Source: a virus
Length of the DNA stretch: 64,000 nucleotides
Virus record (IMG/VR): IMGVR_UViG_3300033475_000015
Reading direction: 5' to 3' (one strand)
The position numbers and the translations under genes are program-made. Positions 54,821 to 57,691 of this stretch are shown here, one piece after another. Position 1 is the first letter of the stretch, and each line of letters begins with the position of its first letter. The notes below the pieces were generated by a model, which made no database searches, was not told the origin of the DNA, and worked only from the letters and a program-made list of their open reading frames with translations.

Positions 54821-55330
54821 ATGACAAGATCCGACATGTTCGAAGACGCAGTGCAGCATGAGACAGAGATCCGCTGGCACGACGACCCCGCCCGGTACCC
54901 GTACCTGCGCCAGCAGATCATGGGGCACACCTCCCGGTCCCGGGTGATCGGAGCGGGTGACCGCTGGTCGCTGGGCAAGCGCATCGTGGGCTACGCCGTA
55001 CTGGGTCCCAAGTCCCCTCCGGGACGGTTCGATCGTCGAATATTCTGGTGCAAGATGGTCGATCGGGACGGCAGTCGGGAGGACCCACCCTACAACGAGG
55101 CGGTGGATCCCCGGCTGATCCGGGCGGGGGTGGTGTGCCCATGGCTGTTCGGCTACTCCGTGCCTCTGGAGGACTGCGCCAGTTGGCTGGCTGCTCGCCG
55201 CAAGGAGATGGGGCTGGCCGAGGGGGAGCGGGCCGCTGCCGCCCCACCGAAGCGGGTACCCCCCATGACCAGGCAATCTTCGGTTTCACCCGGCGTTGCT
55301 CGATTGACAAGCCAACGCGGGGCACGGTAG
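54821..55330 (+). CDS. DUF6009-like protein
   Basis: EIRWHDDPARYPYLRQ...VGYAVL...FDRRIFW; leaderless TAGACT. Confidence 0.6.
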   Translation: MTRSDMFEDAVQHETEIRWHDDPARYPYLRQQIMGHTSRSRVIGAGDRWSLGKRIVGYAVLGPKSPPGRFDRRIFWCKMVDRDGSREDPPYNEAVDPRLIRAGVVCPWLFGYSVPLEDCASWLAARRKEMGLAEGERAAAAPPKRVPPMTRQSSVSPGVARLTSQRGAR

Positions 55331-55333
55331 TCT
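55304..55333 (+). promoter_or_regulatory. Sigma-A-type promoter for the Y RNA cluster
   Basis: TTGACA-N18-TAGTCT, 7 nt before the first Y RNA stem. Confidence 0.7.
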
Positions 55334-55339
55334 GGTACA

Positions 55340-55414
55340 CAGATCGAGCCGAACGGCAGCGGGTTACCCTTTCGCTAAGAGACAACCCCGCCGCCAACCA
55401 ACTCGCCCGATCTG
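55340..55414 (+). ncRNA. Y RNA-like 1 (short)
   Basis: Stem CAGATCG/CGATCTG; GCCGAACG Ro-binding motif; 3' ACCAACTCGCCC. Confidence 0.7.
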
Positions 55415-55428
55415 CGCACAATCGTCCT

Positions 55429-55512
55429 GGCGCCCGAGCTGAACGACCGTGGGTTACCTTTCACTCTGGATGAAACAAGTCACCCCACAGTCACCCCACT
55501 TGCCCGGGTTCC
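55429..55512 (+). ncRNA. Y RNA-like 2 with anticodon-like hairpin (CTG, Gln)
   Basis: CGAGCTGAACG; TTTCA-CTCTGGA-TGAAA; 3' ACCCCACTTGCCC. Confidence 0.7.
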
Positions 55513-55539
55513 TGGACGCGGCACCACTTGCTGGGCCTC

Positions 55540-55742
55540 GGCCGAGCGAGCTGAACGACCGTCGGTTATCGCCTCTTAAGCGGGTGGTTGCGGGTTCAAG
55601 TCCCGCCGAAGGCAGTACGACCGTGAGCCGGTGAACGGACGTTACGACGATCCGACCCGGGCAACCTCACGGCTCCACCTCCCTCGTAGCTCAATTGGCA
55701 GAGCACCTAAACACCGGCAGTCACCAACTCGCTCGCTCGGCC
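55540..55742 (+). ncRNA. Y RNA-like 3 (YrlA-type) with permuted tRNA module and 66-nt insert
   Basis: 12-bp terminal stem; anticodon loop CTCTTAA, T arm GCGGG-TTCAAGT-CCCGC, then D arm GCTC-AATTGGCA-GAGC. Confidence 0.8.
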
Positions 55743-55761
55743 GGGACCCAGTTGGTGGACC

Positions 55762-55894
55762 GCGCGAGCTGAATGAGAGTCGGTTATCTCTTTAGAAAAG
55801 GGCCGGTCCGGGTTCGAACCCCGGCGTCTCCACGTGGGGACGTAGTGTAATTGGCAGCACGGTAAACACCGACGATCAACCACCTTGCCCGCGC
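55762..55894 (+). ncRNA. Y RNA-like 4 (YrlA-type) with permuted tRNA module
   Basis: CGAGCTGAATG; T arm CCGGG-TTCGAAC-CCCGG; acceptor CGTCTCC-ACGT-GGGGACG; D arm GTGT-AATTGGCA-GCAC. Confidence 0.82.
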
Positions 55895-55996
55895 ACCCCA
55901 GTCCGGCCCCGATCCGTTTGGCCCCCCCGGCGGATCGGGGCCGGGCCCATCCTCGCCCGATGACTGCGTCATCGAGCCGAATGCTAGGAGATCGAC

Positions 55997-57691
55997 ATGA
56001 GCAACGCTTTGTCTCGCCACGGCCAGACACACTCGACCCCCCAGACGTCCCCGATCCCGGGCCGCGAGCCCGACATGGTCCAGAACGCGGCGGGCGGCTA
56101 CGCCTTCGCCAAGGACCTGTTCGAGCGACTCCAGGACTTCCTGATCCTGGGCACCGAGGGCAACACCTACTACGCCGACGAGAAGTCCCGCACCCTGCAG
56201 AACGTGCAGGTGGTGCACGACGCGATCCGGGCCGACGGTCTGCGGGCTGTCAAGCTGGCCGTCGAGATCTCCACGGCCCGTCCGGCCCGTGCCGTCAAGA
56301 ACTTCCCGGCCCTGTACACGATCGCCGCTGCGCTGTGCTCGGACGACCTGGCCACCCGCCAGGCGGCGGCGGGCTCGACCCACCTGGTCGCCCGAACCAC
56401 CGACCATCAGGCCCACCTGTTCGGCTACGTCAAGTCGATGAAGGGCAAGCCCGGCGGGCGCAACGGCCGGTCCCCGTCTGTCGGCGGTCCCGTGTTCAAG
56501 CGTGCCTGGACCAACCTGTTCGTCCAGGACCGGGCCGACGCCGTGGCGTACCGGTACCTCAAGGCCCGGTCCCGCAAGACCGGTGACGGCGAGCCCTTCT
56601 CTCCGCGCGACCTGCTGCGCATCGCCAAGCCCGTCCCGAACAGCGAGGTCCAGAGCACCCTGTTCGGCCTGATCTCTGGCAAGGTCAGCCCCATGGAGGC
56701 GAGTGGTGCGCTGGCCTCGTGCAAGTCGTTCTATGAGGCTCAGCTGGCCGACACCCCGGCCAAGGCGGTCCGGGCGATCAACGCCTACCACGTCCCGTGG
56801 GAGTTCCTGCCCACCGAGGTCCTGAAGCACCCGGAGGTCTGGGAGGCCCTGGTCCCGCACCTGGGCATGACGGCCCTGATCCGCAACCTGTCGCGGATGA
56901 CCCAGATCGGAACCCTCGGCCCCTTCAAGCGGGCCAACCGCCGGGTGGCCCAGCGGCTGACCGACCAGGCCGAGCTGCACGCGGCCCGGATCCACCCGTT
57001 CGACCTGCTGCTGGCCCTGAAGGTCTACGAGTCCGGCGCGGCCCAGCCGAATCTTAAGGCACCGGTCCGCACCTGGGACCCGGTGCCCGAGATCGTCACC
57101 GCCTTGAACGAGGCCTACGTCAAGTCCTTTGCGGTCTGCGACAAGATCCCCGGCAACCTGCTGGTGGCCGTCGACAGCTCGGGCTCGATGCAGGGCACGA
57201 ACGTCCAGCACGGCGGGTCAAATCTGGGGTCGGCCTATCGCATGGCCCTGGCGTTCGGCCAGATCCTGATGCGCACCTGGGGCGGCCAGGTCCACATGGT
57301 CGACTTCGACCAGGAGCTGCGCCGCAGCCCGCTGCGGGCCGACATGACCCTGTCCGAGATCAACCGTCTGCACAACGGCCGGGGCTGGGGTACCGACGCC
57401 TCGGTCGTGATGCGCTGGGCCACCCAGCACCGCCACTTCGTCGACGGGTTCGTCCTGATCACGGACAACGAGTCGTGGGCCGGGGACCGCCACGCCAGCC
57501 AGGCCCTGACCGAGTACCGCCGTACGGTCAACCCCAACGCCCGCGTGATCTGGGCGGCCACAGTCCCGAATGGCTACAGCCTCGGCGACCCGACCGACCC
57601 CGGCATGCTGAACGTCCAGGGGTTCGACAGCAACCTGGCCACCCTGGTCTCCTCGTTCATCGGGCCCGCCGTGCGGGCGCCGATGGGGTAG
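55997..57691 (+). CDS. rsr: Ro60-related TROVE-domain RNA-binding protein with vWA domain
   Basis: QNAAGGYAF, FLILGTEGNTYY, MTALIRNLSRM, RIHPF, VAVDSSGSM, GTD, ITDNE, DPGMLNVQGFD. Confidence 0.93.
   Translation: MSNALSRHGQTHSTPQTSPIPGREPDMVQNAAGGYAFAKDLFERLQDFLILGTEGNTYYADEKSRTLQNVQVVHDAIRADGLRAVKLAVEISTARPARAVKNFPALYTIAAALCSDDLATRQAAAGSTHLVARTTDHQAHLFGYVKSMKGKPGGRNGRSPSVGGPVFKRAWTNLFVQDRADAVAYRYLKARSRKTGDGEPFSPRDLLRIAKPVPNSEVQSTLFGLISGKVSPMEASGALASCKSFYEAQLADTPAKAVRAINAYHVPWEFLPTEVLKHPEVWEALVPHLGMTALIRNLSRMTQIGTLGPFKRANRRVAQRLTDQAELHAARIHPFDLLLALKVYESGAAQPNLKAPVRTWDPVPEIVTALNEAYVKSFAVCDKIPGNLLVAVDSSGSMQGTNVQHGGSNLGSAYRMALAFGQILMRTWGGQVHMVDFDQELRRSPLRADMTLSEINRLHNGRGWGTDASVVMRWATQHRHFVDGFVLITDNESWAGDRHASQALTEYRRTVNPNARVIWAATVPNGYSLGDPTDPGMLNVQGFDSNLATLVSSFIGPAVRAPMG

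What the first reader, a model, noticed from the sequence alone, without database searches (positions are those of the whole stretch)
55459..55583. Canonical anticodon loops (Gln CUG, Lys CUU) displayed on Y RNAs
Seen: Y2 has TTTCA-CTCTGGA-TGAAA and Y3 has TCGC-CTCTTAA-GCGG, both 7-nt loops with pyrimidine 32, U33 and purine 37; Y4 has a weaker CTCT-TTAGAAA-AGGG. Known: tRNA-Lys and tRNA-Gln are frequent targets of anticodon nucleases. Inference: Ro-protected decoy substrates, or sensors that are cut when host tRNA nucleases fire.
Basis: partly seen in the sequence, partly recalled or inferred. Interest (0 to 1): 0.7.

Follow-up and report, generated by a model that had tools for sequence, protein, structure and literature searches.

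The report
Real anticodon arms on phage Y RNAs
The small hairpins on this phage's Ro60-partner RNAs (Y RNAs) are conserved tRNA anticodon arms belonging to complete, inside-out tRNA mimics, although published work calls this hairpin a variable arm and says such RNAs lack an anticodon loop; what the loops are used for is untested.

Summary

**Y3 and Y4: far beyond chance.**
- In 51 distinct YrlA-type units from phages and bacteria, 44 have a 3-bp local stem closing exactly 7 nt.
- U33 occurs in 48/51, R37 in 49/51 and A38 in 41/51, while positions 34-36 vary freely.
- Two further pairs (27:43, 28:42) form in trans with the nucleotides after the D arm, and they covary. A normal 4-5-nt variable loop with the 15:48 Levitt pair follows.
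- The hairpin is therefore the anticodon arm of a full cloverleaf, with the Ro-binding stem inserted between nt 28 and 29. It is not the "V arm" of Chen et al. 2014.
- After in-silico de-permutation ARAGORN units tRNAs. Y3 comes out as Lys(CUU) and Y4 as "Ser"(AGA).

**Y2 (no tRNA body): weaker.** Its one ortholog keeps the 7-nt loop but has A33.

**Function.** The decoy/sensor idea is untested.

**Earlier notes.** The scan has noted Ro60/YrlA-like tRNA mimics on other DNA. None of the notes I saw addresses a retained anticodon loop.

The parts
55304..55333 (+). Promoter-like TTGACA-N18-TAGTCT ahead of the Y RNA array
   Evidence: Read. The same TTGACA...TAGACT / TACCGT layout sits ahead of Y1 in the relatives L002 and L001. 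The consensus scan did not list it.
55340..55413 (+). Y1: Y RNA with a plain distal hairpin (5-nt loop) and no tRNA parts
   Evidence: Below-threshold Rfam match to the nematode Y-RNA homolog family RF01656 (30.7 bits, E 3e-4). Fold z-score -3.3. Carries GCCGAA and GGGUUACC motifs.
55431..55509 (+). Y2: Y RNA without a tRNA body, carrying an isolated 5-bp stem with the 7-nt loop CUCUGGA (hairpin 55459-55475)
   Evidence: The ortholog in L002 has UUUUG-UAUCGGA-CGAAA. A canonical arm is found in 8/45 T-less Y RNAs against 1.95 expected.
55533..55749 (+). Y3: YrlA-type Y RNA with a complete permuted tRNA module
   Evidence: Partial Rfam YrlA match 55582-55710 (29.6 bits). Whole-RNA fold z-score -3.7. 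After de-permutation ARAGORN calls tRNA-Lys(ctt).
55570..55584 (+). Y3 anticodon arm: nt 29-31 CGC, loop CUCUUAA (55573-55579), nt 39-41 GCG, nt 42-43 GG
   Evidence: Parse. L002 Y3 has the same loop on a different stem, GGA/UCC. The loop is identical to that of real phage tRNA-Lys(CUU) genes in the same loci.
55585..55606 (+). Y3 variable loop UGGUU (55585-89) and T arm (55590-55606)
   Evidence: The 15:48 Levitt pair is A15:U48 here and covaries across units.
55607..55686 (+). Y3 acceptor stem (55607-13 with 55680-86, 5/7 pairs), closed by a structured 66-nt insert
55689..55707 (+). Y3 D arm (55689-55704), A26, then C27 C28, which pair with G43 G42 (55584, 55583)
   Evidence: Covariation of 27:43 and 28:42 is shown.
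55762..55894 (+). Y4: second YrlA-type Y RNA with a complete permuted tRNA module
   Evidence: ARAGORN after de-permutation calls 'tRNA-Ser(aga)'. Y4 is a row of alignment A3.
55789..55803 (+). Y4 anticodon arm: UCU, loop UUAGAAA (55792-55798), AGG, nt 42-43 GC. These pair with U28 G27 at 55863, 55862.
55997..57691 (+). Ro60/Rsr ortholog (TROVE + Ro60 vWA domains)
   Evidence: Pfam PF05731 (E 1.7e-17) and PF25045 (E 4.8e-34). 371 phage records hold homologs annotated as Ro-like RNA-binding protein.

Best explanation
**Structure (shown by comparison).** Y3 and Y4 are YrlA-type Y RNAs whose distal module is a complete, circularly permuted tRNA cloverleaf. The order along the RNA is:

- 5' strand of the Ro60-binding stem, then GGUUA(Y);
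- nt 29-31, a 7-nt anticodon loop, nt 39-43;
- a 4-5-nt variable loop, then the T arm;
- an acceptor stem closed by a loop, then the D arm;
- nt 26-28, (U)AAAC(A), and the 3' strand of the Ro-binding stem.

The anticodon stem is composite. Three pairs are local and two are made in trans, so the Ro-binding stem is in effect inserted between nt 28 and 29.

**Mechanism (inferred).** Ro60 holds the terminal stem while the distal module passes as a whole tRNA, anticodon loop included, to host proteins that read tRNAs. [quoted passage not shown] I infer that anticodon-loop readers also see it, such as t6A37 or m1G37 enzymes, synthetase anticodon-binding domains or nucleases. This would stabilise the RNA and tether or compete Ro60 with tRNA-handling machinery.

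**What selection acts on.** It keeps the U-turn frame (U33, R37, A38) and the tRNA-like 36/37 rule, and lets the triplet change.

**Y2.** It carries the arm alone. It may be a stripped-down relative.
For: - **Loop and local stem.** 44/51 distinct units have a 7-nt loop closed by 3/3 pairs. U33 is present in 48/51, R37 in 49/51 and A38 in 41/51, and positions 34-36 are variable. The subset chosen only by Ro60 homology gives 17/20.
- **Trans pairs.** 27:43 and 28:42 form in 91/102 cases. Permuted partners give a mean of 65.7 and a maximum of 77. Slid partners give 15-55.
- **Independent count.** In A2, helix 1 is 90.8% paired and helix 2 is 94.8% paired, and every pair in both helices shows changes on both sides. 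28:42 reads AU 13, GC 10, CG 3, GU 1. The whole structure has 96% of cells paired, with 0/500 shuffles reaching that. A3, which includes window Y4, gives 96.9%.
- **True variable loop.** The 4-5 nt before the T stem hold position 48. G15:C48 occurs in 22 units and A15:U48 in 21, out of 46. The hairpin is therefore not the variable arm.
- **De-permutation.** ARAGORN then units tRNAs, with the anticodon in the proposed loop.
- **Identity with real tRNA loops.** The loops match real phage tRNA loops from the same loci: Lys CUCUUAA and CUUUUAA, Asn CUGUUAA, Pro UUUGGGA.
- **36/37 coupling.** G36-G37 occurs in 12 of 14 units with G36, and non-G36 goes with a non-G37 in 30 of 30 (Fisher p 4e-9).
- **An experimentally verified YrlA has the same arm.** The probe sequences for M. 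smegmatis YrlA in Chen et al. 2014 (PMC4201824) read UUA-CCA-CUUCUAA-UGG-AA-UGGUC.
- **A GenBank annotator was fooled.** The SM23 unit is annotated tRNA-Asn.
Against: - No transcript, Ro60-binding or modification data exist for this phage.
- Rfam YrlA scores only 29.6 bits against a gathering score of 69.
- Thermodynamic folding of the short hairpins is unremarkable. The MFE of Y3 picks another register.
- Whether the hairpin stacks under the 27-28:42-43 helix, as a real anticodon arm would, or whether the Ro stem does so instead, cannot be decided without a 3D structure.
- The units were parsed with a free choice of 4 or 5 nt for the variable loop. The nulls had the same freedom.
- 31 of the 51 units came from a pattern that fixed the GGUUA-to-T-loop distance at 16-24 nt.
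- The acceptor end does not match the anticodon identity: N73 fits in 7/44 units against 8.6 expected (the identity rules were taken from memory).
- Y4's AGA and some other A34 triplets are not natural tRNA anticodons, so the mimicry is of the loop frame and not always of a real isoacceptor.
- Y2's ortholog lacks U33.
Confidence: 0.6

Rival explanations
1. Decoy or tripwire. The Ro60-bound Y RNAs display isoacceptor-like anticodon loops. These would soak up, or be cut by, host anticodon-loop nucleases fired as anti-phage defence or as toxins. That would protect host and phage tRNAs, or signal the attack.
For: - The loops are identical to real tRNA loops: Lys, Asn and Pro.
- One conserved scaffold (CCA/UGG stem with AG-AGGUC) carries UCU, UGU, UUU, GUU, GUA, ACG and UUG triplets in different phages. 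Each phage carries two or three different triplets. This looks like diversification of a specificity element.
- The 36/37 coupling is tighter than in real tRNAs.
- Hughes et al. 2020 (PMC7790460) proposed that Salmonella YrlA competitively inhibits an SOS-induced anticodon nuclease. They found that YrlA is not cut by it.
- Phage tRNAs are known countermeasures to tRNA-targeting defences (my own knowledge of the T5/PARIS and PrrC literature; not checked here).
Against: - No nuclease interaction was tested.
- There is no RNA-repair or nuclease gene in the neighbourhood, which is a replication module.
- Y4 (AGA), L123 (AUG) and L158 (AAG) show triplets that match no usual bacterial tRNA.
- The anticodons are spread over about 16 amino-acid classes with no visible focus on known nuclease targets.
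- Bacterial chromosomal YrlAs such as that of M. smegmatis have the same arm, so it is not phage-specific.
Confidence: 0.2
2. Evolutionary leftover. YrlA arose from a tRNA or a tRNA dimer, as Wang et al. 2018 suggested. The anticodon arm is carried along, kept only because any stable hairpin is needed at the three-way junction.
For: - The dimeric pre-tRNA origin is discussed in 10.1101/312249.
- GGUUA resembles the D-loop GGUUA of real tRNAs, which contaminated my motif search.
- The acceptor identity is not matched to the anticodon.
- Salmonella YrlA does without the hairpin.
Against: - Ro60 proteins of these loci are only about 30-57% identical, yet U33, R37 and A38 and the exact 7-nt size are kept while the stems covary. 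A mere spacer hairpin would drift in loop size and sequence.
- The G36-G37 coupling (p 4e-9) is not expected under neutrality.
Confidence: 0.1
3. Pre-tRNA or chargeable tRNA. The permuted module is opened at the acceptor by RNase P, receives CCA (as M. smegmatis YrlA does) and is aminoacylated. It would then act as a two-piece tRNA or tmRNA-like molecule.
For: [quoted passage not shown]
- The cloverleaf is complete, with an anticodon.
- It resembles the permuted tRNA genes of algae and archaea.
- The 7-bp acceptor stem of Y4 contains G3-U70.
Against: - N73 does not follow the anticodon's identity rule.
- Y3's acceptor has 5/7 pairs and a 66-nt insert.
- The Ro-binding stem, about 25 bp, protrudes from the anticodon stem and would probably clash with the ribosome (inference).
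- No bacterial enzyme is known that excises such a stem (Wang 2018).
- A34 triplets such as AGA are odd for decoding.
Confidence: 0.05
4. Variable arm or chance. The hairpin is the 'V' (variable) arm as drawn by Chen et al. 2014, or an accidental hairpin. The anticodon look would be a coincidence, with roughly 1 in 16 for Y32-U33-R37 in any 7-nt loop.
For: - Chen et al. 2014 label it V and say the YUAY motif begins the V loop.
- For a single sequence the hairpins are not thermodynamically special.
- Y2's ortholog lacks U33.
Against: - A separate canonical 4-5-nt variable loop with the covarying 15:48 pair lies between the hairpin and the T stem.
- Two covarying pairs (27:43, 28:42) separate the hairpin from the variable loop.
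- The loop is 7 nt in 44/51 units with U33 in 48/51. By my recollection, class II variable arms have 3-5-nt loops.
Confidence: 0.05

Closest known systems
YrlA (Y RNA-like A) of bacteria and mycobacteriophages: Rfam RF02553; Chen et al. 2014 (PMC4201824); structure of the S. Typhimurium domain, Wang et al. 2018 (10.1101/312249)
   Same: - Encoded next to Ro60/Rsr.
- Terminal stem with a GNCGAA-like motif, and a YUAY motif.
- T arm, closed acceptor stem and D arm in permuted order, with 15:48 covariation.
- By its published probe sequence, the M. smegmatis member has the very same CCA-CUUCUAA-UGG hairpin.
   Different: - Published descriptions call the hairpin a less-conserved 'V' (variable-arm) stem-loop.
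- They state that YrlA mimics only the D arm, T arm and acceptor stem, and 'lacks the anticodon loop'.
- Here the hairpin is shown to be a conserved 7-nt-loop anticodon arm completed by two trans pairs, with a separate normal variable loop.
- The Rfam model has no such hairpin, and the window scores 29.6 bits against a cut-off of 69.
D. radiodurans Yrn1 'anticodon arm' (Chen et al. 2014, Fig. 2E text)
   Same: A Y RNA drawn with a 5-bp stem in the anticodon-arm position.
   Different: Yrn1's loop is 6 nt, its orientation relative to the RNA ends differs, and its D arm is doubtful. No conservation of U33 or R37 was claimed.
Circularly permuted tRNA genes of Cyanidioschyzon merolae and Thermofilum (Soma 2007; Chan 2011, as cited in Wang et al. 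2018)
   Same: The 3' half precedes the 5' half. The acceptor stem is initially closed. The ends pair to extend the anticodon-stem region.
   Different: Those are processed by the splicing endonuclease and a ligase into decoding tRNAs. Here the end-stem is a Ro60-binding Y stem, no such enzymes are known in bacteria, and the break lies in the stem (28/29) with the anticodon loop intact.
Phage-encoded tRNAs as counters to tRNA-targeting defence, and the proposed YrlA competition with an anticodon nuclease (Hughes et al. 2020, PMC7790460)
   Same: Phage or stress-operon RNAs with tRNA shape, proposed to interfere with anticodon nucleases.
   Different: Real phage tRNAs decode. Salmonella YrlA has no anticodon loop. 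Here a non-decoding, Ro60-bound RNA shows the loop itself. Nothing has been tested experimentally.
Nematode sbRNAs / metazoan Y RNAs (Rfam RF01656, RF00019)
   Same: Y1 and Y2 give below-threshold matches to RF01656 through the shared stem and the GGGUUAUC-like motif.
   Different: The metazoan RNAs have no tRNA module or anticodon-like arm.

Membership tests
YrlA-type Y RNA | Encoded beside a Ro60/Rsr (TROVE) gene, on the same strand | tested here: met
   The Ro60 gene lies at 55997-57691, with TROVE and vWA_Ro60 domains. The Y RNAs lie at 55340-55894, upstream on the + strand.
YrlA-type Y RNA | GNCGAAN0-1G motif near the 5' end (Chen 2014) | tested here: inconclusive
   Y1 has GCCGAACG, an exact match. 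Y2 to Y4 have GCUGAAC/UG, with U for C at the third position. Relatives show GCCGAA, GUCGAA, GACGAA and GAUGAA.
YrlA-type Y RNA | Conserved T and D stem-loops flanking a closed acceptor-like stem; YUAY motif | tested here: met
   Y3 and Y4. UUAU follows the 5' stem strand. Helices 3-5 are 95-100% paired with covariation.
YrlA-type Y RNA | Reaches the Rfam RF02553 gathering score | tested here: not met
   29.6 bits against 69, a local match to model positions 23-87 only. Nothing is found at the gathering threshold.
YrlA-type Y RNA | Bound by Ro60/Rsr in vivo | not testable with these tools
   Needs immunoprecipitation. It is shown only for the M. smegmatis relative (PMC4201824).
YrlA-type Y RNA (as described for S. 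Typhimurium) | No anticodon loop; the anticodon stem runs straight into the Ro-binding stem | tested here: not met
   A 7-nt-loop arm is present and conserved. This is the respect in which the actinophage and actinobacterial form differs.
tRNA (RF00005) | Contiguous cloverleaf recognised in native order | tested here: not met
   ARAGORN and Rfam at gathering call only the two real tRNAs at 1084-1159 and 1568-1642. Partial tRNA matches of 18.9 and 16.3 bits fall below the cut-off of 29.
tRNA (RF00005) | Full cloverleaf with a 7-nt anticodon loop, U33 and R37 | tested here: met
   After joining 28/29 and opening the acceptor stem in silico, 47/51 units are called tRNA. Y3 is Lys(ctt) and Y4 is Ser(aga).
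tRNA (RF00005) | Free acceptor ends with a discriminator fitting the anticodon's identity | tested here: not met
   The acceptor is closed by a loop of 0-66 nt. N73 fits the identity rule in 7/44 units against 8.6 expected by permutation (rules taken from memory).
Permuted pre-tRNA (algal/archaeal type) | Processed by end-excision and ligation, then acceptor opening, into a decoding tRNA | not testable with these tools
   Only the topology is shared. Wang et al. 2018 note that no bacterial equivalent of the splicing endonuclease is known.
Anticodon-nuclease decoy or sensor | Substrate-like anticodon stem-loop | tested here: met
   The loops are identical to those of real Lys, Asn and Pro tRNAs in the same phage loci.
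Anticodon-nuclease decoy or sensor | Binding to, cleavage by or inhibition of a nuclease | not testable with these tools
   Needs biochemistry or phage genetics.

The most novel reading that the evidence does not exclude
Ro60-bound Y RNAs of actinophages, and of actinobacteria such as M. smegmatis, carry a fast-evolving panel of isoacceptor-like anticodon arms. The panel would serve as decoys, competitive inhibitors or tripwires for proteins that read anticodon loops. Anticodon nucleases of defence and toxin systems are the leading candidates. Ro60 would protect the bait or couple its cleavage to RNA decay or repair.
Probability: 0.2. Interest if true: 0.85.

Novelty: new variant of a known kind. 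Interest (0 to 1): 0.6.

Why it matters
Why bacterial and phage Y RNAs mimic tRNA has been an open question since 2014. The published picture is that YrlA copies only the elbow half of tRNA (D arm, T arm, acceptor stem) and lacks an anticodon loop.

Most actinophage and actinobacterial YrlAs carry a conserved, canonical anticodon arm with real-tRNA loop sequences, and the triplet changes on a fixed scaffold. That widens the list of candidate partners to anticodon-loop readers: t6A and m1G37 enzymes, synthetase anticodon domains and anticodon nucleases.

The question also becomes directly testable in M. smegmatis and its cluster C phages, which are tractable.

There is a practical point too. 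Such units are being mis-annotated as tRNA genes in phage records.

Tried and rejected
1. **Rfam at gathering threshold** finds no Y RNA in the window. Only below-threshold partial matches appear.
2. **BLASTN of the Y RNA region against phages** found one 47-nt match. It hits an annotated 'tRNA-Asn' of Microbacterium phage SM23, which is itself a YrlA unit next to that phage's Ro gene. It is not evidence of descent from a real tRNA.
3. **Rfam YrlA search of 151 Actinomycetota genomes**. Most 'full-length' hits were tandem real tRNAs. Only L026 and L034 were usable. L036 comes from an unpublished genome (G049) and was excluded from every analysis.
4. **First MAFFT alignment A1** was out of structural register in the hairpin region and was not used for counting. 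I replaced it with A2 and A3, anchored on the T stem.
5. **Matched tRNA identity.** I tested whether the acceptor end carries the identity matching the anticodon, as expected for recent capture from a tRNA or for a chargeable mimic. It does not.
6. **Kissing loops.** I looked for complementarity between the window's own loops (CUU, AGA, CUG) by eye and found none.
7. **Reviews not held.** The reviews of Sim & Wolin 2018 and Sim et al. 2020 are not in the library. I cannot exclude that one of them already notes the anticodon-like loop.
8. **Single-sequence folding** of the hairpins is uninformative.

Full report
**What is there**

The window is a 67% G+C actinophage-like sequence.

At 55997-57691 (+) lies a Ro60/Rsr ortholog with TROVE and Ro60-vWA domains. 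It sits inside a replication module: PD-(D/E)XK nuclease, AAA_24 ATPase, Prim-Pol, DUF6009, a DinG-type helicase and DNA polymerase A.

Upstream, behind a TTGACA-N18-TAGTCT promoter-like site, lie four tandem Y RNAs. Each has a long terminal stem with GCCGAA or GCUGAA on the 5' strand, followed by GGUUA(Y)C.

- Y1 and Y2 give below-threshold matches to the nematode Y-RNA homolog family.
- Y3 gives a partial match to YrlA (29.6 bits against a cut-off of 69).
- Y3 and Y4 contain obvious T and D arms.

**Relatives**

- The Ro60 protein has two close relatives in IMG/VR, plus the same and a few more contigs in metagenomes (54-64% identity). There is one in a Streptosporangiaceae genome.
- It has 371 more distant relatives (about 30-35% identity) in cultured actinophages.
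- The close relatives have the same layout of four Y RNAs.
- I fetched the regions upstream of Ro in nine cultured phages.
- To widen the sample without constraining the hairpin sequence, I scanned IMG/VR for CGGTTA-N16-24-GGTTCRANTCC.

**The hairpin is an anticodon arm, not a variable arm**

I parsed every unit from fixed landmarks, namely the start of the T stem and the end of the D stem. The only freedom was a 4- or 5-nt variable loop. After removing duplicates and real tRNAs this gave 51 distinct YrlA-like units: 2 from the window, 18 found through Ro60 and 31 found through the pattern.

Local stem and loop:

- 44 units have three local pairs closing exactly 7 nt. Shuffled connectors give a mean of 6.3 and a maximum of 14 in 1000.
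- With the 3' strand fixed, loop lengths 3-6 and 8-11 give only 0-8 units.
- Position 33 is U in 48/51 units, position 37 is a purine in 49/51, and position 38 is A in 41/51.
- Position 32 is C in 32 units, A in 11 and U in 7.
- Positions 34-36 use all four bases.
- The subset found only through Ro60 gives the same picture: 17/20 full arms and U33 in 19/20.

Trans pairs:

- The two nucleotides after the hairpin (42, 43) pair with the second and third nucleotides after the D stem (28, 27). This holds in 91 of 102 cases.
- Permuting partners among units gives a mean of 65.7 and a maximum of 77. Sliding the partner gives 15-55.

Two gap-free alignments, anchored on the T stem, were then scored with the count of structure pairs:

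| Alignment | Units | Cells paired | Shuffles | Slid partners | Local hairpin paired | Trans helix paired |
|---|---|---|---|---|---|---|
| A2 | 29 | 96.0% | 69.6%, 0/500 | 30-42% | 90.8% | 94.8% |
| A3, includes window Y4 | 17 | 96.9% | 68.4%, 0/500 | 34-50% | 96.1% | 88.2% |

In A2 all five pairs of the two helices show compensatory changes. 28:42 reads AU 13, GC 10, CG 3 and GU 1.

The 4-5 nt between nt 43 and the T stem are a normal variable loop. Its last base covaries with D-loop position 15: G15:C48 in 22 units and A15:U48 in 21, out of 46.

So the topology is a complete cloverleaf in which the Ro-binding stem enters between nt 28 and 29. UUA(Y) and (U)AAAC(A) are the linkers. When the units are de-permuted in silico, ARAGORN of 51 tRNAs with the anticodon in the proposed loop. 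Window Y3 becomes tRNA-Lys(CUU) and Y4 becomes 'tRNA-Ser'(AGA).

**How tRNA-like the loops are**

- Real tRNA genes in the same loci have Lys loops CUUUUAA and CUCUUAA, Asn CUGUUAA and Pro UUUGGGA. These are identical to Y RNA loops.
- Position 37 follows position 36 as in tRNAs: U36, A36 and C36 go with A37, and G36 goes with G37 in 12 of 14 units (Fisher p 4e-9).
- One conserved scaffold (CCA/UGG stem, AG, AGGUC) carries UCU, UGU, UUU, GUU, GUA, ACG and UUG in different phages. The triplet therefore turns over on a fixed frame.
- Against full isoacceptor mimicry, the base after the acceptor stem does not follow the anticodon's identity rule (7/44 against 8.6 expected).
- A32 is over-represented (11/51 against 8/431 real tRNAs).
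- Some triplets, such as Y4's AGA, are not normal tRNA anticodons.

**Y2**

Y2 has no tRNA body, only a 5-bp stem with the loop CUCUGGA. Its one ortholog (L002) keeps a 7-nt loop and has a compensatory change in the closing pair, but reads UAUCGGA, so U33 is not kept.

Among 45 Y RNAs without a T arm in my loci, 8 carry a stem of at least 3 bp with an N-U-N-N-N-R-N loop. The expectation is 1.95, with a maximum of 7 in 1000 shuffles. These include a second Y RNA of mycobacteriophage Rizal (CUGUCAC) and two IMG/VR phages with 5-bp stems (CUUCUAA, CUGCUAA). An isolated anticodon-like arm is thus a recurrent minority feature. For Y2 itself the evidence is modest.

**What is already known**

- Chen et al. 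2014 (PMC4201824) found YrlA RNAs beside Ro60 in more than 250 bacteria and phages. [quoted passage not shown] They wrote that the YUAY motif begins the V loop.
- Their probe sequences show that M. smegmatis YrlA contains UUA-CCA-CUUCUAA-UGG-AA-UGGUC, exactly the arm described here. That RNA is Rsr-bound, cleaved by RNase P and receives CCA.
- Wang et al. 2018 solved the Salmonella domain, which has no such hairpin, and state that YrlA 'lacks the anticodon loop'. They also discuss a dimeric-tRNA origin and the likeness to permuted tRNA genes.
- Hughes et al. 2020 suggested that YrlA might competitively inhibit an anticodon nuclease.
- I found no paper that recognises the hairpin as an anticodon arm. 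Two relevant reviews are not held.

**Mechanism**

Shown by comparison: the fold, and the selective constraint on the loop frame.

Known from experiment on relatives: Ro60 binding, TruB and DusA modification, and RNase P and CCA processing.

Inferred: the module presents itself as a whole tRNA, loop included, to tRNA-reading proteins while Ro60 holds the other end.

| Reading | Odds |
|---|---|
| Generic whole-tRNA mimicry | about 0.6 |
| Decoy or tripwire for anticodon nucleases | about 0.2 |
| Evolutionary leftover | about 0.1 |
| Chargeable or pre-tRNA | about 0.05 |
| Variable arm or chance | about 0.05 (realistic only for Y2) |

**Verdict**

- The structural reading is right.
- The functional reading is open.
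- The locus is a new member of the known Ro60/YrlA kind.
- The retained, conserved anticodon arm is a variant not described in the literature I could read.

Noticed in passing
L010 1171-1237 (PQ655446.1 26711-26777); L015 4227-4315; L016 1140-1348: YrlA-type Y RNA units beside phage Ro genes are annotated or called as tRNA genes. Microbacterium phage SM23 has 'tRNA-Asn'. Gordonia phage Mareelih has 'tRNA-Leu(gag)', which ARAGORN also calls and which overlaps tRNA-Gln. Rhodococcus phage Trina has a pseudo 'tRNA-OTHER'.
   Followed up: partly
L001 2372-2430 (same in L004): After the fourth Y RNA and before Ro60 lies a tRNA-like minihelix. It has an acceptor stem with G3-U70, D and T arms and an encoded ACCA end, but no anticodon arm. 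ARAGORN does not call it. At the same place L002 has tRNA-Asp(gtc) and L005 has tRNA-Arg(acg). The window has only a G+C-rich hairpin there.
   Followed up: partly
window 55903-55948: A long G+C-rich inverted repeat (GGCCCCGATCCG...CGGATCGGGGCC) lies between Y4 and the Ro60 start codon, with no U tract. It could be a processing site or an attenuator separating the RNA genes from the mRNA.
   Followed up: no
window 55614-55679: Y3's acceptor stem is closed by a structured 66-nt insert, where other units have 0-16 nt. The stem itself has only 5/7 pairs. The insert folds into its own long helix in the MFE structure.
   Followed up: no
window 55825-55842: Y4's 7-bp acceptor stem (GGGGACG/CGUCUCC) contains G3-U70 and is closed by the 4-nt loop ACGU.
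   Followed up: no
all YrlA units: Position 32 of the Y RNA anticodon loops is A in 11/51 units, against 8/431 real tRNAs from the same loci. G36 is followed by G37 more strictly (12/14) than in the real tRNAs (65/106). Unexplained.
   Followed up: partly
window 54821-55330: A DUF6009 protein gene lies directly upstream of the Y RNA promoter, between Prim-Pol and the Y RNA array. Function unknown.
   Followed up: no
loci L027, L029, L030, L035, L040, L044 and others: The Rfam YrlA model gives 'full-length' below-threshold hits (31-46 bits) on pairs of adjacent ordinary tRNA genes in Actinomycetota. This is a trap for homology searches, and it echoes the proposed dimeric-tRNA origin of YrlA.
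   Followed up: partly
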